Shown in pieces: positions 74-29,323 of a DNA stretch of 31,756 nucleotides; the stretch's first letter is position 1, and each line of letters begins with the position of its first letter. The DNA comes from a virus. Where the stretch lies: UHGV virus genome UHGV-0302986; one strand, written 5' to 3'. The notes below the pieces were generated by a model. It searched no databases. It had not been told where the DNA came from and saw only the letters and a list, made by a program, of their open reading frames with translations. Both the position numbers and the translations under genes were made by a program.

Positions 74-424
74 CTATTCGATAATGGGTCCTGTTGGCCA
101 TTCAATATCCGGTGCAGTTGATGTATCAACACGGTTCAGCAATACCCGATACTTCTTCCAGGCTTCCACCACCAGCACGACAAGATGCCGCATACAGTGA
201 CCCAGTCAGTCCAGTTTCCAGACAACCAGTGCGTCACCTTTTTGAAGGCGCTTTAAAGCACGTTTTAATCCAGGTCGGCCTGTCCTTATTCCGCTTAATT
301 TATCTTCAAATATTTGTTCACATCCTGCACAAACAAGAGCGTTTCGTTGCAGGTCTGTATTCTGGTCATTTGTTGATACCCTTACATAGCCAATCAGCAC
401 GCTGAATCTCCCGTCCAAAAGCAC
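74..424 (-). pseudogene. pin: Gin/Pin-family serine DNA invertase, degraded remnant
   Basis: ORF 206..424 translates to ...VLIGYVRVSTNDQNTDLQRNALVCAGCEQIFEDKLSG...LVVWKLD, the conserved N-terminus of Gin/Pin/Hin/Cin invertases (probable GTG start at 400). In-frame TGA at 206..208 sits where the family has Arg (WKLD-R-LGRSM). The continuation [14 protein letters not shown] keeps similarity briefly, then diverges and ends at TAG 74..76. No C-terminal HTH domain is found in any frame of 1..205. Confidence 0.6.
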
Positions 425-454
425 AAATCATGCCATGCAGGCCAGAAACCGCCA

Positions 455-480
455 TTATCTAAAACCTCGGTTTACAGGAA
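455..480. repeat. gix/hix-like 26-bp invertase crossover site, left boundary of invertible segment
   Basis: TTATCTAAAACC-TC-GGTTTACAGGAA: two imperfect 12-bp half-sites around a 2-bp core, matching the remembered Gin/Hin site pattern. An inverted copy lies at 3508..3533, with 24 bp of identical flank (ACGGTAAA...) continuing inward. Confidence 0.7.
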
Positions 481-1425
481 ACGGTAAATCAGGCTTCTGG
501 CGCATTACAGAAAAACCAGAACGGCGCAGATATTCCGGGAAAAGATACCTTCACCAAAAACATTGGTGCCTGCCGCGCATATAGCGCATGGCTGAATATT
601 GGTGGCGATAGTCAGGTCTGGACAACTGCGCAATTTATTTCGTGGCTGGAGAGTCAGGGGGCATTTAACCATCCTTACTGGATGTGCAAAGGCTCATGGG
701 CTTATGCAAATAATAAGGTTATTACAGATACAGGTTGCGGAAATATTTGTCTTGCAGGTGCTGTGGTGGAAGTTATTGGCACTCGCGGCGCAATGACCAT
801 ACGCGTTACTACGCCGAGCACGTCCAGCGGTGGCGGAATTACTAACGCTCAATTCACTTATATTAATCATGGTGATGCTTACGCTCCTGGCTGGCGACGA
901 GACTACAACACGAAAAACCAGCAGCCTGCATTTGCTTTAGGGCAAACAGGACGCAGGGTCGCAAATGATAAAGCTGTTGGCTGGAACTGGAATAGCGGTG
1001 TTTATGATGCAGATATCAGTGGTGCATCGACATTAATCCTCCACTTCAATATGAATGCGGGGAGTTGCCCTGCTGTACAGTTCCGCGTGAATTACAGGAA
1101 CGGCGGTATTTTTTATCGTTCAGCGCGTGATGGTTATGGCTTTGAAGCTAACTGGTCAGAGTTTTACACCACAACACGCAAACCCTCTGCGGGGGATGTT
1201 GGTGCATATACGCAGGCAGAATGTAACTCAAGGTTTATTACAGGTATTCGCCTTGGCGGTCTGTCATCTGTTCAGACATGGAAAGGCCCCGGCTGGTCTG
1301 ACAGGTCAGGTTATGTCGTTACGGGTTCAGTTAACGGAAACCGTGATGAATTAATTGATACAACTCAGGCAAGGCCAATTCAGTATTGCATTAATGGGAC
1401 GTGGTATAACGCGGGGAGTATTTAA
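469..1425 (+). CDS. Silent alternative side-tail-fibre C-terminal cassette (promoterless; expressed only after inversion)
   Basis: The frame is open from the crossover site to the stop at 1423..1425 and contains track ORF 682..1425. Translation starts LGLQETVNQASGALQKN..., parallel to stf LGLQETVNRARNAVQKN..., and ends IQYCINGTWYNAGSI versus stf IQKYINGTWYNVVQV. An in-frame TAA at 460..462 lies in the outer half-site and would be left behind on inversion. Confidence 0.6.
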   Translation, partial: GLQETVNQASGALQKNQNGADIPGKDTFTKNIGACRAYSAWLNIGGDSQVWTTAQFISWLESQGAFNHPYWMCKGSWAYANNKVITDTGCGNICLAGAVVEVIGTRGAMTIRVTTPSTSSGGGITNAQFTYINHGDAYAPGWRRDYNTKNQQPAFALGQTGRRVANDKAVGWNWNSGVYDADISGASTLILHFNMNAGSCPAVQFRVNYRNGGIFYRSARDGYGFEANWSEFYTTTRKPSAGDVGAYTQAECNSRFITGIRLGGLSSVQTWKGPGWSDRSGYVVTGSVNGNRDELIDTTQARPIQYCINGTWYNAGSI

Positions 1426-1427
1426 CG

Positions 1428-1961
1428 ATGATGCACTTAAAAAACATTACTGCTGGCAACCCTAAAACAAAAGAGCAATACCAGCTAACAAAGCAATTTA
1501 ACATCAAATGGCTTTATTCAGATGATGGAAAAAACTGGTATGAGGAACAAAAGAATTTCCAGCCAGACACTTTGAAAATGGTCTATGACCATAACGGCGT
1601 TATTATTTGTATTGAAAAGGATGTTTCAGCAATTAATCCAGAGGGTGCAAGCGTCGTTGAATTACCTGATATTACAGCAAATCGCCGGGCTGATATTTCG
1701 GGGAAATGGATGTTCAAAGATGGCGTAGTGATAAAGCGAACTTATACCGAGGAAGAGCAGAGGCAACAAGCGGAAAATGAAAAGCAAAGCCTGTTGCAAC
1801 TTGTCAGGGATAAAACCCAGCTATGGGACTCACAGCTACGGCTGGGCATCATTTCCGACGAGAATAAACAAAAATTAACCGAGTGGATGCTCTATGCGCA
1901 GAAAGTCGAATCTACAGACACTTCCGGCCTGCCAGTAACGTTTCCCGAACAACCAGAATGA
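1428..1961 (+). CDS. tfa: Tail fibre assembly protein (cassette B)
   Basis: 177 aa; [25 protein letters not shown]...ANRRADISGKWMFKDG...LPVTFPEQPE is a paralogue of the minus-strand Tfa at 1990..2517. It lies immediately after the alternative fibre tip, as in Mu G / e14 P segments. Confidence 0.85.
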   Translation: MMHLKNITAGNPKTKEQYQLTKQFNIKWLYSDDGKNWYEEQKNFQPDTLKMVYDHNGVIICIEKDVSAINPEGASVVELPDITANRRADISGKWMFKDGVVIKRTYTEEEQRQQAENEKQSLLQLVRDKTQLWDSQLRLGIISDENKQKLTEWMLYAQKVESTDTSGLPVTFPEQPE

Positions 1962-1964
1962 GAG

Positions 1965-1991
1965 AAGGCCCGCTATCGGGCCTTAATTTTT
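1965..1991. terminator. Hairpin between convergent tfa genes, probable bidirectional terminator
   Basis: AAGGCCCG-CTAT-CGGGCCTT stem-loop followed by AATTTTT on the plus strand. Confidence 0.45.
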
Positions 1992-2517
1992 ACTCTGGTT
2001 TTTGTGGCCATTCAGGATTTGCCGTATCCACACGGCTGGCCAGAACACTGTAGCGTTCCCATGCTTCCAGTCGTGTGCGTTCCTCGTCTGTTGCCATATT
2101 CAGCCTGACAGCGCGTTCCAGCGGTTGGATGACTGATTCAGCTTCGGAAAGCAATGCGGCCTTTTGTGATTCGGCCTGTTGTTGTTGCTCGTCTGCCGTA
2201 TAAATCCGTTTAACCACAGCTCCGTCCCTAAACATCCACTTACCGGAATCATCAGCGCAGCGGTTGGCTGTAATATCTGGAACCTCAACGACGCTATAAC
2301 CTTCAGGGTTAAGCGTGGAGGCATCTTTGGTGATGGCGACAATAATATTATTTGCATCGTAAACAATCTTTATTGTGTCTGGCTGAAAGTTTTTCACTTC
2401 CTCATACCAGTTTTTTCCGTCTTCGGACCATAACCAGATAACATCAAAATTCTTTGTTAGCTGATATTGTTCTTTTGTTTTTGGATTTCCAGACTTAATA
2501 TTTTTTAAATGCTGCAT
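1990..2517 (-). CDS. tfa: Tail fibre assembly protein (cassette A, currently coupled to stf)
   Basis: 175 aa; [30 protein letters not shown]...[16 protein letters not shown]...EWPQKPE, Tfa family, directly downstream of stf. Confidence 0.85.
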
Positions 2518-2520
2518 AAA

Positions 2521-5400
2521 TTACACCTGTACGACGTTATACCATGTGCCATTGATGTATTTTTGTATTGGTCTGAATACTGCCGGATCATCGCCATCAA
2601 CTGCACCGATAATGCCAAGCCCCGTAATTGCATGACCTGATTTCTCATACATCACGCCTTTTTGCATAGTCTGAACAACACGTGTACCAAGTCGGACATC
2701 TCTCACATAACGTGAGTCAAAATTACCATAATTGCCGGGAATAACTTGCGCACCGCAAAGCCAGTTGCCATTGTTGTCCATGTACGCCTGACCATCGGTG
2801 CCATTGGCTGTCCTTGAGTTATTAATCATGTAGATGCCAAATTGCTTATTCCCCAGTCCACCAATCATAAATTTGCGATCAGCGTGGTCCTGACGAAGTA
2901 ATGCCTGCGCACCATCGGTGGATACCGCATTGCGTCCCAAAATAACATTCTGGTCACGCATATGAATCCACATGCCGGTACTACTGTTAATTGCAAAACG
3001 GTTTGCAAATATATCCCCTGTAACATCAAGACCATGCCCCATGCTTATCCGACCAGTTCTGAGATTAAGCGTAAAGGGGCGTAGTGGCCCTATACCACCA
3101 TTTTCTCCCTCATTCTCTCGTGTAGGGATGATATGCAGGCATTCTTCAGAACGACGAAAAATAGCACCAAAAGATGAATTAAATATCCTCAGTGCATTGA
3201 CTGTCGATATTTTTACTTCACTGCTGAAAAGGGCTTTAACAAGGACAGACAAAGCATCCCATTTAAGAGTCATCAGGTCTTTTGTTGTGGTGCTCTGGCG
3301 GCTTCTCCATTTGAAATATTCATTGCCGTTGTCGCCTGTTTCAAACCACATGTATGAATCAGTGTCGCTGTCGGCATTATTTTTAAAACCAATCTTTGCC
3401 CAGTCAGTATTTCTAATCCAGGCAAGGATTGAGTCGTTTTCAAAAGTAAGCCCACCGGACAAGGTATCGCCATTCTTTTGCACGGCGTTCCTGGCCCTGT
3501 TTACCGTTTCCTGTAAACCGAGGTATTCGATAACGGCAGCAACGGTCGATTTCGCAAGAATATCCCGCCCGACTTTTGTCAGGGTTGCCAGGCTGGCGAC
3601 ATCATTCCCCGTAAAATACGGAAACCTGTCTGCCGCAGTAGCAAGCCCGGCCAGCGCCGTCAGGGTGGCATCTTTCGGTTGCTTACCCGCAAGCGCGTTA
3701 GTCATGGTGGTCGCAAAATTCGGGTCGTTGCCCAGCGCCGCCGCTAACTCGTTCAGCGTATTCAGTGCGTCAGGCGACGAGTCTACAAGGGCGGCAATCG
3801 CGGCCATCACATAAGCCGTACTTGCGATCTGAGTATTATTAGTACCTTTTGGCGCAGTTGGCGTTGTTGGCGTTCCGGTCAGTGCAGGACTATTTAAGGG
3901 CGCTTTCTTGTTCGTTTCATCCATTACCGCCTTAACCGCTTTTGGTGTCGCAGCCAGCGTTTCAGACGGGCTGTTAGTGGCGCTACTGAGCTGAACCACA
4001 CCTTTTTTCGTCGTACTCGCATCTTCCAGAGATACGGCATCAGCAATATCCTCTGCCCGTTTTGCCGCTGTTTCGGCACGCGTTGCCGCGGATTCAGCAG
4101 CAACTTTGCTCTGAGATGCAGCCGTCGCACTGCCTGCCGCCTCTGATGCTTTCGTTGTTGCTGTCGTGGCACTACCTTTCGCTGCTGACGCTTGTCTGGT
4201 CGCCTCATCTTTTGAAGCAGACGCAGATGATGTCGATGACGCCGCTGAACCAGCGGACGATGCGGCTGCCGCCTTAGAGGAAGCAGCATTGTCTGCTGAA
4301 GTCTTTGCATTTGTTTCAGAGGTTTTTGCTGCAGAAGCAGACCTCGCTGCTGCAGTGGCTTGCTCAGTGGCTTCGCCAGCCTTCGTTGTGGCTGTTGAAG
4401 CGGATGATGCGGCGCTTTCTGCCGATTTTCCGGCAGCGGTGGCACTGGCTGAGGCCTGCCCGGCACTTGTTGACGCAGCACTGGCAGACGACGCAGCCGC
4501 TGTTTTTGAACCTGCCGCAGCTGAGGCGCTCTGTCCCGCTGCTGTTTCAGAAGACTTAGCGTTCGTCTCGGACGTTTTTGCCGCCTTCGCGGAATTTCCT
4601 GCCGCTGTTGCCGAGGAAGCTGCGCTACTGGCGCTCGAGGATGCGTTCGTTTCTGATGATTTTGCCGCCTCTTTTGAAGCCGCCGCATCCCGGGCTGAGG
4701 TGGCAGCTTCTGACGCTTTCGTAGTCGCGGTGGATGCAGAAGTGGCTGCTGATTGTTGTGACGCTGCAGCATTCGTTTCTGACGTTTTCGCGGCACTGGC
4801 ACTGGTAGCTGCCGCGCTTTTTGAGGACTCTGCAGCGGCAGCACTTTTTGATGCTTCAGTGGCCTTTGTTGATGCCGTTCCTGCGCTGGAAGTCGCTGAC
4901 TGAGCCGACGACGCGGCCTGTCCGGCTGACGTGCTGGCTGCGCGTGCTGAGCCTGCAGCATCAGTCGCATGGGTTGCCGCCTCACGGGCTGATGTGCTGG
5001 CATCACTGGCTGACTTCTTTGCGGCTGCCGTGTTCTGTGCCACCACGGACGCGTTACGCGCCACCTCTTCCACCATCAGCTCAAAACGGCGCAGTGCCTC
5101 CGGACGGGCATCATCCTCCGTCATGGCACCGAGAAAATCATTCAGCGTACCGGGTCAGGAATCTTCATACACTGTGATGGTCCCGGCATGTGACGGCGGG
5201 AATCCTTCCACCAACAGAATAACGCTGTACTGACCGTACTCAACGTCCATACTGTAACGCCCGGCTTCATCCGGATTTTCTGAGGCCAGCGTGTTCACCA
5301 CCACCGTGGTACTGTTACGTTTTGCTTTCAGCTGGATTGTGCAGTTCTGTACCGGTTTTCCTGTGCCGTCTTTCAGTACACCTGAAATCTTTACTGCCAT
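2521..5400 (-). CDS. stf: Side tail fibre protein Stf, interrupted by an in-frame TGA at 5155..5157
   Basis: N-terminal ORF (ATG at 5400) MAVKISGVLKDGTGKPVQNCTIQLKA...TITVYEDS matches the lambda Stf N-terminus. TGA at 5155..5157 is followed in the same frame by PGTLNDFLGAMTEDDARPEALRR... (track ORF 2521..5124, 867 aa), a long Ala/Ser/Thr-rich shaft and a C-terminal tip ending INGTWYNVVQV. Confidence 0.85.
3508..3533. repeat. gix-like crossover site inside stf, right boundary of invertible segment
   Basis: Minus-strand reading TTATCGAATACC-TC-GGTTTACAGGAA is an inverted copy of 455..480 and encodes stf residues IEYLGLQE. Confidence 0.7.
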
Positions 5401-5410
5401 ATTCACCCCA

Positions 5411-5438
5411 CAAAAAAGCCCGCCTGAACCGGCGGGCT
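5411..5438 (-). terminator. Rho-independent terminator downstream of lom, just upstream of stf
   Basis: Minus-strand hairpin AGCCCGCC-GGTTCA-GGCGGGCT followed by TTTTTTG. Confidence 0.6.
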
Positions 5439-5464: not shown

Positions 5465-6064
5465 TCAGAATTTATAACCAACACCCACGATGAACCCGTC
5501 AGTGCGCCAGTCACCACTGCCGGAGCCTTCATAAGCGACATCAATGGCCACGGATTCGGTCGGGTTAAACTGCACGCCAGCCCCCCACGCCAGAGACGTG
5601 TTGCTGTGGCGACCGTCATCACTTCCGGTCAGCACATCGTGCGTTTTCCCCTTGTTGTCAGTTACGCGGAGATAATCCCCGGAGAAAGTCGACACACGGC
5701 TGTAAGCCACGCCTGCCATCGCATACGCGCTGAACCATTCATTCACGCGTACAGACGGCCCCGCCATCACGCTGAACCAGCGGTTACGCACGGAATCTTC
5801 ATGCCAGCGGGTATCGCTGTAATGGGTCAGCTGGCGATTCTTGTCTCCTGCATAGCTGAACGACGTCACCATCCCCAGTGTGTCCGTAAACTCATAACGG
5901 TATTTCACGTTAATCCCGTTCAGATCATCACTGCCGGGAACGTTCGTCCGGGCATGAAGATACCCCGCGCTCAGCGTGGACTGATGTTCAGACGCCCATG
6001 CAGGCGCACCGGATACGGCCAGACAAATGGCTGCGGACAAAATGGCGGCATAAAGTTTACGCAT
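5465..6064 (-). CDS. lom: Outer membrane protein Lom (Ail/Lom family)
   Basis: 199 aa; MRKLYAAILSAAICLAVSGAPAWA signal peptide, then a beta-barrel sequence ending GFIVGVGYKF. Position between J and stf is as in lambda. Confidence 0.9.
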   Translation of the reverse strand: MRKLYAAILSAAICLAVSGAPAWASEHQSTLSAGYLHARTNVPGSDDLNGINVKYRYEFTDTLGMVTSFSYAGDKNRQLTHYSDTRWHEDSVRNRWFSVMAGPSVRVNEWFSAYAMAGVAYSRVSTFSGDYLRVTDNKGKTHDVLTGSDDGRHSNTSLAWGAGVQFNPTESVAIDVAYEGSGSGDWRTDGFIVGVGYKF

Positions 6065-6130: not shown

Positions 6131-9100
6131 TCAGCTGATACTGATACCTGCTGTGGATTTCTTCATCACCACAACCAGCAGATCGCTGATACTGGTTGTT
6201 GGTGTCCAGTTATTCGCTCCTGATGAAGATACGGTGAATGTCAGTGTCAGCGTCCCCTGTCCGGCAGGCATATCTATAACTGAGGAAAATACGCCCTGAG
6301 CATCCGTCGTGGACTGATTAAAAATCTCCTGACCATTGCGGGTCACTCTTAACCGGCAGGTTGAATACCAGTATGACTGTTGGTTATTACTGTTGAAATT
6401 CTCATGCTTACCACCGCGGAATAACACTGGCGGTATCATGACCTGCCGGTCAAATTTCTGATCATCACTGATTCTTACCGTGATGGTGCCACTGGCATAA
6501 CTGTTCGTGCGGGGGAAAGACTTGCTGACCGTTTTGACAATATCGCCTTCAATCTGATTGGCTGACAGTTTCCCCTTAATCTGACAGTTTTCATTAATCG
6601 TGACATTGTTGAGCGTCCCTGAATTTGCATTCACATTACCGCTGATATCCGCATTTTTAGCGGTCAGCTTTCCGTCTGGTGTCAGGGAAAATGCCGGCGG
6701 ATTTCCACCGCTGGTAATGGTGGGAGCCGTCAGGCGTTTCAGGAACACGTCGTTCATGAATATCTGATCGCCCTGACCAACAAACATCGGTTTTGTGTTG
6801 CCATTCGCAGGATTAACCATCGCAATCCTGTCCGCCGCCAGCAGCACCTGACTCTGCATGCCGTCAGGGGTATTCTCAATACCGGCACCAATACCCGCGA
6901 TATAAAGGCGTCCGTCCTGCATCTGCTGCAGCTTCACAGCCCACATGCTGTTCAGGTTATTATTTGTATCAACCTGAACCTTCTGTATCTGCTGAATTGC
7001 AGCACTCTGGTCTTCCAGTTTCTTATTGACGGTCTGCGTGATTTCATTGCTGACATCCGTAATGGACGTCCTGATTTCAGCCAGGTCAGGCGCAAGCTGA
7101 CCGTTATCAATCTGCGTCCACAGCTCCTGAGCCAGATGGGTTTTCCCTATCTCGCCTTTGAAAAAATCCAGATAACCGGATGCATCATCACTCGGCTGAC
7201 CAACAGCCTCCACGAATGCCGATTTGCCAACGGTGTTCACACTGCGGATATAAAAGTAATAATCATGGCCCGGTTTGATATTGATACTGGCGGCTATCCA
7301 GTACAGCGCCGTGCCAAGATAGCGTGCTGTGGTTTCAACCTGCCTGATATCCGCAATCCGCTTTTCCGAGAACCAGAACTCAAACTGTACCGTCGGATCA
7401 TAAACCGCAAGATGCGGCGTGGCGGTTATCTGAAAATAGCCCGGCGTCAGCTCAATCCGCGACGGCGCTGCCGGTGCGGCAATCCGGAACGATACCGACG
7501 CCGGATCGCCCTGCTGCCCCCACGCATTTACTGCCCGGACTGTCAGCCTGTAGTTCCCCAGCGCCAGTTGTGTGAAGCGGTAAGTGGTTTCCGTCGTCCG
7601 GGCCGTGCTGACCAGCCGCTCACTGCCGTCATCCGCTGTTACGGTCAGACGGAGCAGGAAGCTCACGCCCTTCACCACCTTCGGTGTGTCCCATCGCGCC
7701 AGCACCTGATATTCCCCGCTGTCTGCAGTGACTTCGGCGGTCAGGTGCTGCACTGCTGGCGGCGTGACACCATTCACCGTGCCGCTCTGGTCACCGTCAA
7801 AGTGCGCCCCGTTATCCACGATGGCTTCTTTTTCCGGTACATGCTGCACGGCGGTGATGGCATACGTGCCGTCGTCGTTCTCACGGATACTCACGCAGCG
7901 GAACAGGCGCTGGCGCAGCGTCGGCAGCTTCAGCCCCCACACGCTGTATTCAGCAACGCCGTCAGGAACACGGCTCACTTTCACCTTCACGCCGTCGGTG
8001 ACGGACTGAACCTCCACGCTGACCGGATTGCCACTTCCGTCAACCAGGCTTATCAGCGTGGTGCCGGAAGATGGCAGCGTGATTTCACGGTCGAGCGTCA
8101 GCGTCCGGGTCTGGCTGTTTACCGCCAGCACGCGCCCGCCGGTGCGGATACCGGCATAGTCATCATCGCAGATTTCAATGACATCGCCCGGTACATGGCG
8201 AAGCCCTTCGGCACCCACGCTGAAGTCCACGGTCTGCGTTTCCAGCAGTTCTGTTTTAATCAGCCACAGCCCGGCGCGGTGTGCCTGCCCCCGGCTGGTA
8301 CAGCCAAAAGCATCCATCTTCGTGACGTTACGACCGTAACGGGCAATGGCCTGCGTGTCCTCCACAAGCTCTGTCGCCGTCTCCCAGCCGTTATTCGGGT
8401 CAATCCAGTTCACCTCAACGGCATTATGGCGGTCCTTCAGGGCGCTGAAGCTGTAGCGGAACGGCGCACCATCATCCGGCATCACCACATTACTGCGGTT
8501 ATAGGTCCACACCTTATCCGACGGTCGGTCCTGCACGAACGTCAGCGTCTGCCCGTTCCATACCGGCATACAGCGCATCGCAGAGCAGAAATCACTGAGC
8601 ACATCCCACGCCTTGCGCTGTGTGGTCAGGTACGCATTACAGGTGATGCGCGGCTCCGTGCCGCCAAAACCGTCCGGCACCGACTGATCGCAATGCTGGC
8701 CGATGACATACAGCGCCCATTTGTCCACATCCGCCGCACCAAGACGTTTCCCCATGCCGTAGCGCGGATGGGTCAGCATATCCCACAGACACCAGGCCAT
8801 GTTGTTGCTGTATGCTGGCTTAAACGTTCCGTCCCAGATACCGCTGTATTGCCGCGTCTGCGGGTTATAGTTCGACGGCACCTGCAGAATGCGCCCGCGA
8901 AGATGATAATTACGGCTCACCTGCTGGCTGCCGAACTGCTCCGAATCCACCTGCACGCCGACCAGTGCCGTGTTCGGGTAGCACTGTTTCACATCGATGA
9001 TTTCGGTGTATGACGACCAGAGCGTTTTGTTCTGCAGCTGGTCTGTGGTGCTGTCCGGCGTCATTCTGCGCATCCGGATATTAAACGGGCGCGGCGGCAG

Positions 9101-9613
9101 GTTATCCACCACCACCGAGGCCAGATACTGCGAGGTGGTTTTGCCCTTAATGGTGATGTCTTTTTCCGTCACCCAGCCACCGTTACGTTGTATCTGAACC
9201 AGCAGGCGAACTTCCGACGGATTCCGGTCCCCCTTTGAGGTGGTTTCCACCAGTGCCTGCACACCGAAGGTAAAGCGCAGACGGTCGATGTTTGCCGACG
9301 TGATGGTCCGGGTAATCGGCGTGTCGTACTTCACTTCCGTACCCAGCACCGTCTCGGAGCCGGAGGATTCAAATCCCTCCGGCGGTGTCTGCTCCTGCTC
9401 ACCGGCCCGGAACACCACCGTGACGCCGGATATATTGGTATTCCCCTCACTGTCCAGCACCGGCGTACTGTTCAGCAGCACGCTTTTTAATCCATCCACC
9501 GGACCTTCAACCGGCCCTTCGCTGATGGCATCGATCACACTCAGCAGCTGCGTGGACTTCAGGTTGTCCTTCGCTTCGCGCGGGGTATGCCCCTTACTGC
9601 TGCCTTTACCCAT
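6131..9613 (-). CDS. J: Tail tip / central tail fibre protein J
   Basis: 1160 aa; the N-terminus [39 protein letters not shown] matches lambda J; position after I. Confidence 0.95.
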
Positions 9614-20668: not shown

Positions 20669-24349
<3,681 letters not shown>

Positions 24350-24375
<26 letters not shown>

Positions 24376-24895
24376 TCAGCAACCCCGGTATCAGTTCATC
24401 CAGCGCGGCTGCTTTGTTCATGGCTTTGATGATATCCCGTTTCAGGAAATCAACATGTCGGTTTTCCAGTTCCGGAAAACGCCGCTGCACCGACAGGGGG
24501 ATCCCGTCGAGAATACTGGCAATTTCACCTGCGATCCGCGACAACACGAAAGTACAGAATGCGGTTTCCACCACTTCAGCGGAGTCTCTGGCATTCTTCA
24601 GTTCCTGTGCGTCGGCCTGCGCACGCGTAAGTCGATGGCGTTCGTACTCAATAGTCCCTGGCTGGAGATCTGCCTCGCTGGCCTGCCGCAGTTCTTCAAC
24701 CTCCCGGCGCAGCTTTTCGTTCTCAATTTCAGCATCCCTTTTGGCATACCATTTTATGACGGCGGCAGAGTCATAAAGCACCTCATTACCCTTGCCACCG
24801 CCTCGCAGAACGGGCATTCCCTGTTCCTGCCAGTTCTGAATGGTACGGATACTCGCACCGAAAATGTCAGCCAGCTGCTTTTTGTTGACTTCCAT
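24350..24895 (-). CDS. Nu1: Terminase small subunit Nu1
   Basis: 181 aa; MEVNKKQLADIFGASIRTIQNWQEQGMPVLRGGGKGNEVLYDSAAVIKWYAKRD..., immediately downstream of cos. Confidence 0.95.
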
Positions 24896-28240: not shown

Positions 28241-29323
28241 ATGAAAAAATTAACAGTGGCAATTTCTGCTGTAGCTGCATCAGTACTGATGGCGATGTCT
28301 GCTCAGGCAGCTGAAATTTATAATAAAGACAGTAACAAGCTGGATCTGTACGGGAAAGTTAATGCTAAGCACTACTTCTCCTCTAATGATGCAGATGATG
28401 GTGATACTACTTATGCCCGTCTTGGCTTCAAAGGTGAAACCCAAATCAACGATCAACTGACTGGTTTCGGTCAGTGGGAATATGAATTCAAAGGCAACCG
28501 CGCTGAATCTCAAGGTTCCTCCAAAGACAAAACCCGTCTTGCATTTGCAGGCCTGAAATTCGGTGACTACGGCTCAATCGATTACGGCCGTAACTACGGT
28601 GTAGCATACGACATCGGTGCGTGGACTGACGTTCTGCCAGAATTCGGTGGCGATACCTGGACCCAAACAGATGTATTCATGACTGGTCGCACCACAGGTG
28701 TTGCAACTTATCGTAACAACGACTTCTTTGGTCTGGTTGATGGCCTGAACTTTGCAGCTCAGTATCAGGGCAAAAATGACCGAAATGAAGTAACTGAAGC
28801 TAATGGCGATGGTTTCGGTTTCTCAACTACTTATGAGTATGAAGGATTCGGCGTGGGTGCAACCTATGCTAAATCTGATCGCACTAATAATCAGGTTATC
28901 TACGGTAACAACGGTCTGAATGCTTCTGGTCAAAATGCTGAAGTATGGGCAGCTGGTCTGAAATATGATGCGAACAACATCTATCTGGCCACCACCTATT
29001 CTGAAACCCAGAACATGACTGTTTTTGGTAATAACCATATTGCCAACAAAGCACAAAACTTCGAAGCTGTTGCACAATATCAGTTCGACTTCGGCCTGCG
29101 TCCATCCGTTGCTTACCTGCATTCTAAAGGAAAAGACTTGGGTGTTTGGGGTGATCAGGACCTGGTTGAATATGTTGATGTAGGTGCAACCTATTACTTC
29201 AACAAAAATATGTCCACTTTTGTTGACTACAAAATCAACCTGATTGATAAGAGCGATTTCACGAAAGCATCTGGCGTTGCTACCGATGATATCGTTGCTG
29301 TAGGTATGGTTTACCAGTTCTAA
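28241..29323 (+). CDS. nmpC: Outer membrane general porin (OmpC/NmpC/Lc family), prophage moron
   Basis: 360 aa; signal peptide [59 protein letters not shown]-terminal ...VGMVYQF. It lies opposite to and between Q and the lysis genes, preceded by a ~540-bp AT-rich region. Confidence 0.9.

What the first reader, a model, noticed from the sequence alone, without database searches (positions are those of the whole stretch)
5100..5200. In-frame TGA splits the side tail fibre gene stf after 81 codons
The N-terminal stf ORF (ATG at 5400) and the 867-codon ORF 2521..5124 are in the same reading frame, separated only by the TGA at 5155..5157. The minus strand reads GAT TCC TGA CCC GGT ACG CTG AAT GAT..., and homology to lambda Stf continues straight across the stop (..TITVYEDS / stop / PGTLNDFL..). 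This is either a nonsense mutation that silences the side fibres, as happened by frameshift in laboratory lambda, or a leaky stop: TGA followed by C is the weakest termination context in E. coli. Re-initiation at the ATG at 5124 is a third option, which would give a fibre lacking its tail-attachment N-terminus.
Basis: partly seen in the sequence, partly recalled or inferred. Interest (0 to 1): 0.6.

Follow-up and report, generated by a model that had tools for sequence, protein, structure and literature searches.

The report
Nonsense mutation in prophage side-fibre gene
A single C-to-T change has turned an arginine codon into a stop codon early in the side tail fibre gene of a lambda-like prophage of E. 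coli; this is an ordinary gene-killing mutation carried by a small group of strains, much like the loss of side fibres in laboratory lambda.

Summary
On the minus strand stf starts at 5400, runs 81 codons, meets TGA at 5157..5155 (next base C), and stays open in the same frame for 877 more codons to 2521.

The two closest complete genomes are E. coli PSS-13 and ES6, which carry the same prophage at the lambda attachment site. Both have CGA (Arg) at this codon. So did 123 of 127 related loci; none had a stop. The TGA is therefore a derived C-to-T nonsense mutation.

It is not an assembly error: four other public assemblies or runs carry the identical haplotype. It is also rare: no exact match in 5,426 complete E. 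coli genomes, IMG/VR or JGI metagenomes.

The stop lies inside the N-terminal collar domain that fixes the fibre to the tail (Pfam PF08400; lambda Stf residues 1-91, PDB 9e7m). The 81-residue product is incomplete. A product restarted at Met93 would lack the attachment domain.

I found no conservation of the stop, no SECIS, no RNA structure and no Shine-Dalgarno motif, so programmed readthrough or reinitiation has no support. Only basal opal leakiness remains.

Verdict: an ordinary pseudogene of low interest.

The parts
5155..5400 (-). 5' fragment of stf: ATG plus 80 further codons, then the premature TGA. It encodes 81 residues of the N-terminal collar (tail-attachment) domain.
   Evidence: Called as an 81-aa gene with a PF08400 hit in public assemblies.
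5155..5157 (-). Premature opal codon TGA (codon 82), followed by C. It derives from CGA (Arg) by a C-to-T change at window position 5157 (A on the + strand, G in relatives).
   Evidence: PSS-13 and ES6 have CGA. (CGA 123, CAA 2, CGC 1, AGA 1, stop 0 among 127 loci).
2521..5154 (-). The rest of stf, in frame with the 5' fragment (codons 83-959 plus the stop at 2521..2523): end of the collar domain, linker, Ala/Ser-rich shaft and receptor-binding C-terminus.
   Evidence: no further stop. (PF08400 to residue 134; PF21446 Gp34_trimer at 667-777).
5122..5124 (-). First in-frame ATG after the stop (Met93), start of the mechanical 867-codon ORF. The preceding 20 nt contain no GGAG, GAGG or AGGA.
   Evidence: read directly. 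Met93 falls in the linker (residues 92-101) of lambda Stf.
4999..5400 (-). Extent of the Pfam PF08400 'prophage tail fibre N-terminal' domain (codons 1-134), which the stop interrupts at codon 82.
5417..5438 (-). Intrinsic-terminator-like hairpin plus T-run between lom and stf, ending about 17 nt before the stf ATG.
   Evidence: Annotated as 'terminator' at the same place in phages Ayreon and mEp460.
5465..6064 (-). lom (Ail/Lom outer-membrane protein), the gene upstream of stf.
   Evidence: (PF06316, E 2.9e-121).
6131..9613 (-). Central tail fibre / host-specificity gene J, intact.
3500..3537 (.). Inner inverted-repeat arm (crossover site) inside stf, at about codon 621. It is the boundary between the constant part of stf and the invertible C-terminal part.
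   Evidence: 38 nt, 92% complementary to 451-488. In L133 the sequence switches to 489 onwards exactly here.
451..488 (.). Outer inverted-repeat arm of the 3-kb invertible segment.
1990..2517 (-). tfa (tail fibre assembly chaperone) for the fibre C-terminus in its present orientation.
   Evidence: PF02413, E 3.6e-37.
682..1961 (+). Silent alternative cassette: alternative fibre C-terminus (682..1425; the open frame reaches back to the repeat at 489) and its own tfa (1428..1961).
   Evidence: PF12604, PF02413. Joined to stf in strain ET76 and in GCA_965259545.1.
206..400 (-). Remnant (64 aa) of the serine invertase gene next to the invertible segment.
   Evidence: 'recombinase family protein'; PF00239 Resolvase, 64 aa.

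Best explanation
The TGA is a true, inherited nonsense (opal) mutation, Arg82 to stop (CGA to TGA, one C-to-T transition), in the side tail fibre gene of a lambda-like prophage integrated at the lambda attachment site of E. coli. It cuts the protein inside its N-terminal collar domain, the part that clamps the fibre onto the tail at the gpV/gpM junction. Translation ends after 81 residues, so the shaft and receptor-binding part are not made in useful amounts. Any virions this prophage produces should lack side fibres and adsorb through gpJ alone, as laboratory lambda does. Shown here: the base change, its polarity, its rarity, its presence in several independent assemblies, and its position in the domain. 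Inferred: the phenotype (fibreless virions) and neutral or weakly selected loss as the cause.
For: Sequence and frame. Polarity: the same prophage in PSS-13 differs from the window at only 15 of 31,000 bases, and both PSS-13 and ES6 have G at 5157, giving CGA. Phages phi458, ev099 and mEp332 have CGA. Among 127 loci with the same flanks the codon is CGA 123, CAA 2, CGC 1, AGA 1, and never a stop. Rarity: the 61-mer carrying the TGA has no exact match in 5,426 complete E. coli genomes, and shorter patterns spanning it have none in GTDB species representatives (35-mer), IMG/VR (29-mer) or JGI metagenomes (29-mer). Not an error: GCA_012309085.1 and GCA_012250175.1 are 100% identical to the window over 8,124 and 6,224 bases including the TGA. 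GCA_965259545.1 and Logan run SRR32285503 carry the same haplotype, and nine more similar places were not shown. Domain: PF08400 spans residues 1-134. Lambda Stf 1-94 is solved on the virion (PDB 9e7m/9mgh), with residues 1-91 as the collar domain and 92-101 as the linker (PMC12617516). Relaxed constraint: the five changes specific to the window's clade are all GC-to-AT transitions, and four of the five are missense or nonsense. Precedent: stf is dispensable and easily lost. Laboratory lambda carries a frameshift and no Stf was detected in its virions (PMC10721106). 19 of 21 low-adsorption isolates selected on plates had stf mutations (PMC2762979). An O157:H7 copy is annotated as frameshifted. 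In viable phages mEp332 and vB_EcoS-569R4 the reading frame from the stf start ends after 226 and 360 codons.
Against: No expression data exist. Basal UGA readthrough in E. coli is not zero: K-12 reporters with premature TGA averaged 0.5% at 37 C and about 7% at 18 C, nearly always inserting Trp (PMC11126739). A few full-length molecules are therefore likely, and a virion needs only 12. Stops at the same codon occur in two other haplotypes: TGA in GCA_002511655.1 and TAA in GCA_005400625.1, each one C-to-T step from a common sense haplotype. This could hint at a hotspot or at selection, although I found them only because I searched for this exact 81-residue product.
Confidence: 0.86

Rival explanations
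1. Leaky stop: the UGA-C codon is read through, mainly by tRNA-Trp, often enough to give a functionally meaningful amount of full-length Stf (R82W). The prophage would then make virions with few or variable side fibres, more of them at low temperature.
For: UGA is the leakiest stop in E. coli. Reporter means were 0.5% at 37 C and 7% at 18 C, with single sites at 2-6% and Trp inserted. Position 82 tolerates both Arg and Gln in relatives, so it is probably not structurally critical. From my own recollection, not checked here: Poole et al. 1995 (reference seen; paper not held) ranked UGAC as the weakest tetranucleotide, and an acidic residue at position -2 (Asp here) weakens termination (Mottagui-Tabar et al. 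1994).
Against: The stop is absent from 127 related loci and from all complete genomes tested, so it is not a maintained feature. The flanking sequence is identical to that of alleles with a sense codon, so nothing has evolved to promote readthrough. The downstream fold is no better than shuffled sequence (z -0.09). The reporter study singles out T and G, not C, as the influential next base. It also attributes the high K-12 values partly to K-12's weak RF2 allele, which (from my recollection) natural isolates usually lack. Fibres are trimers, so yield falls at least in proportion to readthrough.
Confidence: 0.08
2. Reinitiation: after terminating at the TGA, ribosomes restart at ATG 5124 (Met93), 30 nt downstream, and make an 867-residue fibre without the collar domain.
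For: The ATG is in frame and close to the stop. Restarts after nonsense codons are known in E. coli (lacI and rIIB restart work, from my own recollection).
Against: The 20 nt before the ATG contain no GGAG, GAGG or AGGA; the only weak match, GGTG, lies just 2 nt from the ATG. The product would begin in the linker, residues 92-101, and would lack residues 1-91, which form the collar on gpV/gpM. It could not attach to the tail. [quoted passage not shown] Even if made, the product is therefore non-functional as a virion fibre.
Confidence: 0.04
3. Sequencing or assembly error: the true sequence has CGA and the gene is intact.
For: It is a single-base difference from the nearest complete genomes.
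Against: The same T is present in at least four other public assemblies or runs, two of them identical to the window over 6-8 kb. One has the adjacent 3-kb segment in the opposite orientation, so it is a different isolate.
Confidence: 0.02

Closest known systems
Frameshift in stf of laboratory lambda (lambda PaPa; orf-401/orf-314), versus the intact gene of Ur-lambda
   Same: The same gene in the same place (J-lom-stf-tfa), with an N-terminal domain nearly identical over residues 1-94. A point lesion splits one gene into two in-line ORFs. The expected result is virions without side fibres that still infect through gpJ.
   Different: Here the lesion is a base substitution (CGA to TGA) at codon 82, inside the collar domain. 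Lambda's is a one-base frameshift after about 400 codons that leaves the collar domain whole. This allele sits in a natural prophage lineage, not a laboratory stock.
Spontaneous stf loss-of-function mutants selected for low adsorption on plates (Gallet, Shao and Wang 2009, PMC2762979)
   Same: Loss of Stf function by point lesions. Lesions in the 5' (attachment) part of the gene abolish function.
   Different: Those mutants were frameshifts (15) and missense changes (4) selected in the laboratory. No nonsense allele at codon 82 was reported in the passages I read, and selection is not shown for the present allele.
Programmed UGA readthrough in phage Q-beta (A1 protein)
   Same: A UGA inside a phage structural reading frame, with an open frame continuing beyond it.
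   Different: In Q-beta the stop is conserved and both products are needed (my own knowledge). Here the stop is a rare derived allele absent from relatives, so this is a resemblance only.
Gin/Cin/Pin-type invertible tail-fibre segments (Mu G, P1 C, e14 P)
   Same: The 3' third of this stf lies in a 3-kb segment flanked by 38-nt inverted repeats, with two alternative C-terminus plus tfa cassettes and an adjacent serine-recombinase gene. Both orientations occur among close relatives.
   Different: The invertase gene is reduced to 64 codons, so inversion must depend on an enzyme supplied in trans. The nonsense codon lies in the constant part, so it silences both orientations.

Membership tests
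Lambda-type side tail fibre gene stf (PF08400 family) | N-terminal 'prophage tail fibre N-terminal' / collar domain | tested here: met
   PF08400 over 1-134 of 134, E 1.3e-71, on the sequence with codon 82 repaired. Lambda Stf 1-94 in PDB 9e7m, E 1.2e-53.
Lambda-type side tail fibre gene stf (PF08400 family) | Gene order J - lom - stf - tfa at the end of the tail operon | tested here: met
Lambda-type side tail fibre gene stf (PF08400 family) | Uninterrupted reading frame giving a full-length fibre protein | tested here: not met
   TGA at codon 82. It is therefore a pseudogene or null allele of this family, not a functional member.
Programmed stop-codon readthrough | The stop codon is conserved among relatives that keep the downstream frame open | tested here: not met
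   0 of 127 related loci have a stop. No exact match of three nonsense haplotypes in 5,426 complete genomes.
Programmed stop-codon readthrough | A stimulatory context or downstream RNA structure | tested here: not met
   Fold z-score -0.09 against shuffles. No relevant Rfam match. The flanks are identical to sense-codon alleles.
Programmed stop-codon readthrough | The extended product is made at a measurable, reproducible fraction | not testable with these tools
   Needs a reporter assay, western blot or mass spectrometry.
Selenocysteine UGA | SECIS hairpin directly downstream of the UGA | tested here: not met
   The minimum-free-energy fold puts no hairpin directly after the UGA (the next stem starts more than 20 nt downstream) and is no more stable than shuffled sequence; no Rfam hit. 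Relatives have Arg or Gln, not Cys or Sec.
Gin/Cin/Pin-type invertible tail-fibre segment | Inverted-repeat crossover sites, one of them inside the fibre gene | tested here: met
   451-488 and 3500-3537, 38 nt, 92% complementary.
Gin/Cin/Pin-type invertible tail-fibre segment | Both orientations found in nature | tested here: met
   ET76 and GCA_965259545.1 have the opposite orientation to the window.
Gin/Cin/Pin-type invertible tail-fibre segment | A functional invertase encoded next to the segment | tested here: not met
   Only a 64-aa Resolvase-domain remnant at 206-400(-).

The most novel reading that the evidence does not exclude
Nucleotide 244 of stf (first base of codon 82, at the end of the collar-domain beta-sheet) may be a recurrent C-to-T site. 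A stop has arisen there at least three times in different haplotypes: CGA to TGA twice and CAA to TAA once. That would point to a mutational hotspot or to repeated selection for fibreless phage. In addition, the opal alleles might leak enough at low temperature (about 7% in reporters at 18 C) to give temperature-dependent, sub-stoichiometric side fibres.
Probability: 0.05. Interest if true: 0.4.

Novelty: new member of a known kind. Interest (0 to 1): 0.1.

Why it matters
It matters little beyond correct annotation. This stf should be labelled a pseudogene (internal stop, R82*), not two genes, as gene callers have done in public assemblies (81-aa and 867-aa products). It is one more natural example that side tail fibres are dispensable and easily lost in lambdoid prophages. 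Because the lesion is a single revertible base in the constant part of the gene, it also makes a clean natural null allele for anyone studying this prophage's adsorption, or the two alternative fibre tips carried by its invertible segment.

Tried and rejected
1. Assembly error: rejected, because the allele recurs in independent assemblies.
2. Private singleton: this was my first reading after searches found no exact match. The exact-protein look-up corrected it to a small clade.
3. Widespread allele: the 81-aa product is listed in 351 index blocks and on 212 contigs, which looked like wide distribution. Most of these are gene fragments cut off by contig ends that happen to stop at this codon, alongside similar fragments of 64-132 aa. 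They are not stops.
4. Selenocysteine or a structured readthrough signal: no Rfam hit and no fold better than shuffles.
5. Dcm hotspot: the mutated C is not in a CCWGG site (read directly).
6. Reinitiation signal: no Shine-Dalgarno motif before ATG 5124.
7. Checking the 'UGAC is the weakest context' claim at its source: Poole et al. 1995 is not held. The 2024 reporter study names T and G, not C, as the influential next base.
8. A frameshift in the nearest relatives: PGAP annotates stf in PSS-13 and ES6 as 'missing C-terminus' plus a separate hypothetical protein. By my arithmetic on the annotated coordinates the two pieces are in the same frame, and those genomes differ from the window's stf by only 2-3 substitutions and no indels. 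The gene is therefore continuous there and the split is an annotation quirk.

Full report
**1. The observation**

The finding is exactly as described. On the minus strand, stf begins with ATG at 5400. Eighty-one sense codons follow, ending ...GTG TAT GAA GAT TCC. Then comes TGA at 5157..5155, followed by CCC GGT ACG CTG AAT GAT TTT CTC GGT GCC ATG. That ATG, at 5124, is in frame (codon 93).

Translating 5400..2521 gives 960 codons with one internal stop, at codon 82. The ORF listing reports the 867-aa ORF 2521..5124(-) and the N-terminal ORF ending at 5155. An 877-codon open frame after a stop cannot arise by chance.

Homology runs across the stop. With codon 82 repaired, Pfam PF08400 ('prophage tail fibre N-terminal') matches residues 1-134 of 134 (E 1.3e-71). 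Lambda Stf residues 1-94 (PDB 9e7m/9mgh) align end to end (E 1.2e-53), with Gln where the window has the stop.

**2. Context**

The window is the late region of a lambda-like prophage of E. coli. In strains PSS-13 and ES6 the same prophage lies between ybhC and ybhB/bioA, the lambda attachment site. It has int and xis at the far end and J-lom-stf-tfa at the bio-proximal end.

An intrinsic-terminator-like hairpin (5438..5417, minus strand) precedes stf, as annotated in related phages.

The last third of stf lies in a 3-kb invertible segment:
- It is bounded by 38-nt inverted repeats at 451-488 and 3500-3537.
- It carries two alternative C-terminus plus tfa cassettes.
- The adjacent invertase gene is reduced to 64 codons.

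The stop lies in the constant part of the gene, so it silences both orientations.

**3. Origin of the stop**

PSS-13 differs from the window at only 15 of 31,000 aligned bases. Both PSS-13 and ES6 have G (+ strand) at 5157, which gives CGA (Arg). Phages phi458, ev099 and mEp332 also have CGA.

Among 127 loci with the same flanking 12 and 14 bases (120 IMG/VR contigs plus loci fetched earlier), the codon is:

| Codon | Count |
|---|---|
| CGA | 123 |
| CAA | 2 |
| CGC | 1 |
| AGA | 1 |
| any stop | 0 |

The TGA is therefore derived from CGA by one C-to-T transition.

**4. How common it is, and whether it is real**

The 61-mer around the TGA has no exact match among 6,172 places in 5,426 complete E. 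coli genomes. Shorter exact patterns spanning the TGA also found nothing in GTDB species representatives (35-mer), IMG/VR (29-mer) or JGI metagenomes (29-mer).

The exact-protein look-up did find it. GCA_012309085.1 and GCA_012250175.1 are 100% identical to the window over 8,124 and 6,224 bases. Logan run SRR32285503 differs at one base elsewhere. GCA_965259545.1 carries the same haplotype, with the invertible segment flipped. Nine more similar places were not shown.

The allele is therefore real and inherited in a small clade. It is not an assembly error.

The apparent abundance of the 81-aa 'protein' (351 index blocks, 212 contigs) is misleading. It consists mostly of gene fragments cut off at contig ends, and similar fragments of 64-132 aa are just as common.

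**5. Other stops at the same codon**

Two other haplotypes carry a stop at codon 82: TGA in GCA_002511655.1 and TAA in GCA_005400625.1. Each is one C-to-T step from a common sense haplotype, CGA in strain E2865 and CAA in an O157:H7 strain. Neither is present in any complete genome.

These are three independent hits at one nucleotide. But I found them by asking for this exact truncated product in a collection of about 15 billion proteins, so recurrence is expected and does not by itself show a hotspot. The mutated C is not in a Dcm site.

**6. What the stop does**

In Ur-lambda, Stf residues 1-91 form a collar domain: a six-stranded beta-sheet followed by a helix. Twelve copies of it clamp around the gpV/gpM junction. 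Residues 92-101 are a flexible linker to the trimeric shaft (PMC12617516).

The stop at 82 removes the end of that domain and everything beyond it. A product restarted at Met93 would begin in the linker and could not attach to the tail. There is no Shine-Dalgarno motif before that ATG.

Nothing marks the site as a recoding site. No Rfam family matches, and the RNA around and downstream of the stop folds no better than shuffled sequence (z -0.09). The flanks are identical to those of sense alleles.

Basal opal readthrough must occur. Reporters in K-12 averaged 0.5% at 37 C and about 7% at 18 C, with Trp inserted. The authors attribute the high values partly to K-12's weak RF2 allele (PMC11126739). 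That amounts to traces of full-length protein, not a designed product.

**7. Why this is ordinary**

Side fibres are accessory, and there are several signs that stf is easily lost:
- Laboratory lambda lost them through a frameshift, and no Stf was detected in its virions (PMC10721106).
- 19 of 21 low-adsorption isolates selected on plates had stf lesions, with missense changes clustered at the 5' end (PMC2762979).
- Broken or short stf genes are common in my sample. The frame ends after 226 and 360 codons in viable phages mEp332 and vB_EcoS-569R4, and 11 of 82 other correctly registered loci end before codon 500. An O157:H7 copy is annotated as frameshifted.
- The five substitutions specific to the window's clade are all GC-to-AT transitions, and four of the five are missense or nonsense. 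This fits relaxed constraint on a resident prophage.

**8. Verdict**

This is a genuine nonsense mutation (R82*, CGA to TGA) that makes stf a pseudogene in a small clade of E. coli. It is analogous to, but distinct from, the laboratory lambda frameshift. Confidence is 0.86, interest is low, and it counts as a new member of a well-known kind.

Noticed in passing
window 451-488 and 3500-3537 (segment 489-3499); L133 (GCA_965259545.1) 4864-5003: The 3' third of stf lies in a 3-kb invertible segment with two alternative fibre-tip plus tfa cassettes. An isolate of the same TGA clade has the segment in the opposite orientation, as does strain ET76. Inversion has therefore happened recently, although the adjacent invertase gene is only a 64-codon remnant (206-400, minus strand). 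An invertase supplied in trans is implied.
   Followed up: partly
window 4233, 5157, 9916, 11075, 17247: The five substitutions that set the window's clade apart from both PSS-13 and ES6 are all GC-to-AT transitions. Four change the protein: Stf A390T, Stf R82*, gpI A121T and gpL P196S. The numbers are small, but they fit relaxed selection or a biased mutation process.
   Followed up: partly
L134-L137 (public draft assemblies), contig ends at nt 244 of stf: Several draft assemblies break their contigs exactly at the first base of codon 82. The likely reason is that co-resident prophage copies are identical up to that point and first differ at the next base (CGA vs CAA). This produces many database 'proteins' of exactly 81 aa that are not truncated by a stop.
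   Followed up: partly
L130 (GCA_005400625.1) and L131 (GCA_002511655.1), codon 82 of stf: There are independent stops at the same codon in two other haplotypes: TAA derived from CAA, and TGA derived from CGA. I did not test whether this nucleotide is hit more often than other codons that can mutate to a stop.
   Followed up: partly
L006 and L007, locus 21521-24400 (= window 2521-5400): RefSeq (PGAP) annotates the continuous 959-codon stf of ES6 and PSS-13 as a pseudogene 'missing C-terminus' plus, in PSS-13, a separate 'hypothetical protein'. The two pieces are in the same frame with no stop between them. The cause is probably that the reference proteins carry the other orientation of the invertible tip.
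   Followed up: yes
window about 28241-29323 (+), by offset from L007 47241-48323: An OmpC-family porin gene sits inside the prophage between the Q-like antiterminator and the lysis genes. This is notable because lambda side fibres use OmpC as their receptor.
   Followed up: no
just upstream of window position 1 (L139 8125-8604; L006 17669-19000): A sensor diguanylate cyclase gene (MASE4 plus GGDEF) lies between the prophage's tail-fibre end and ybhB. That is where lambda's b region and attR would be, so it may be prophage cargo.
   Followed up: no
L128 2504-4807 (PSS-13, beyond the window's right end): In PSS-13 an IS1 insertion disrupts genes in the nin region of the same prophage, and several early-region genes are annotated as pseudogenes. 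The prophage lineage therefore shows other signs of decay. I do not know whether the window's strain shares them.
   Followed up: no
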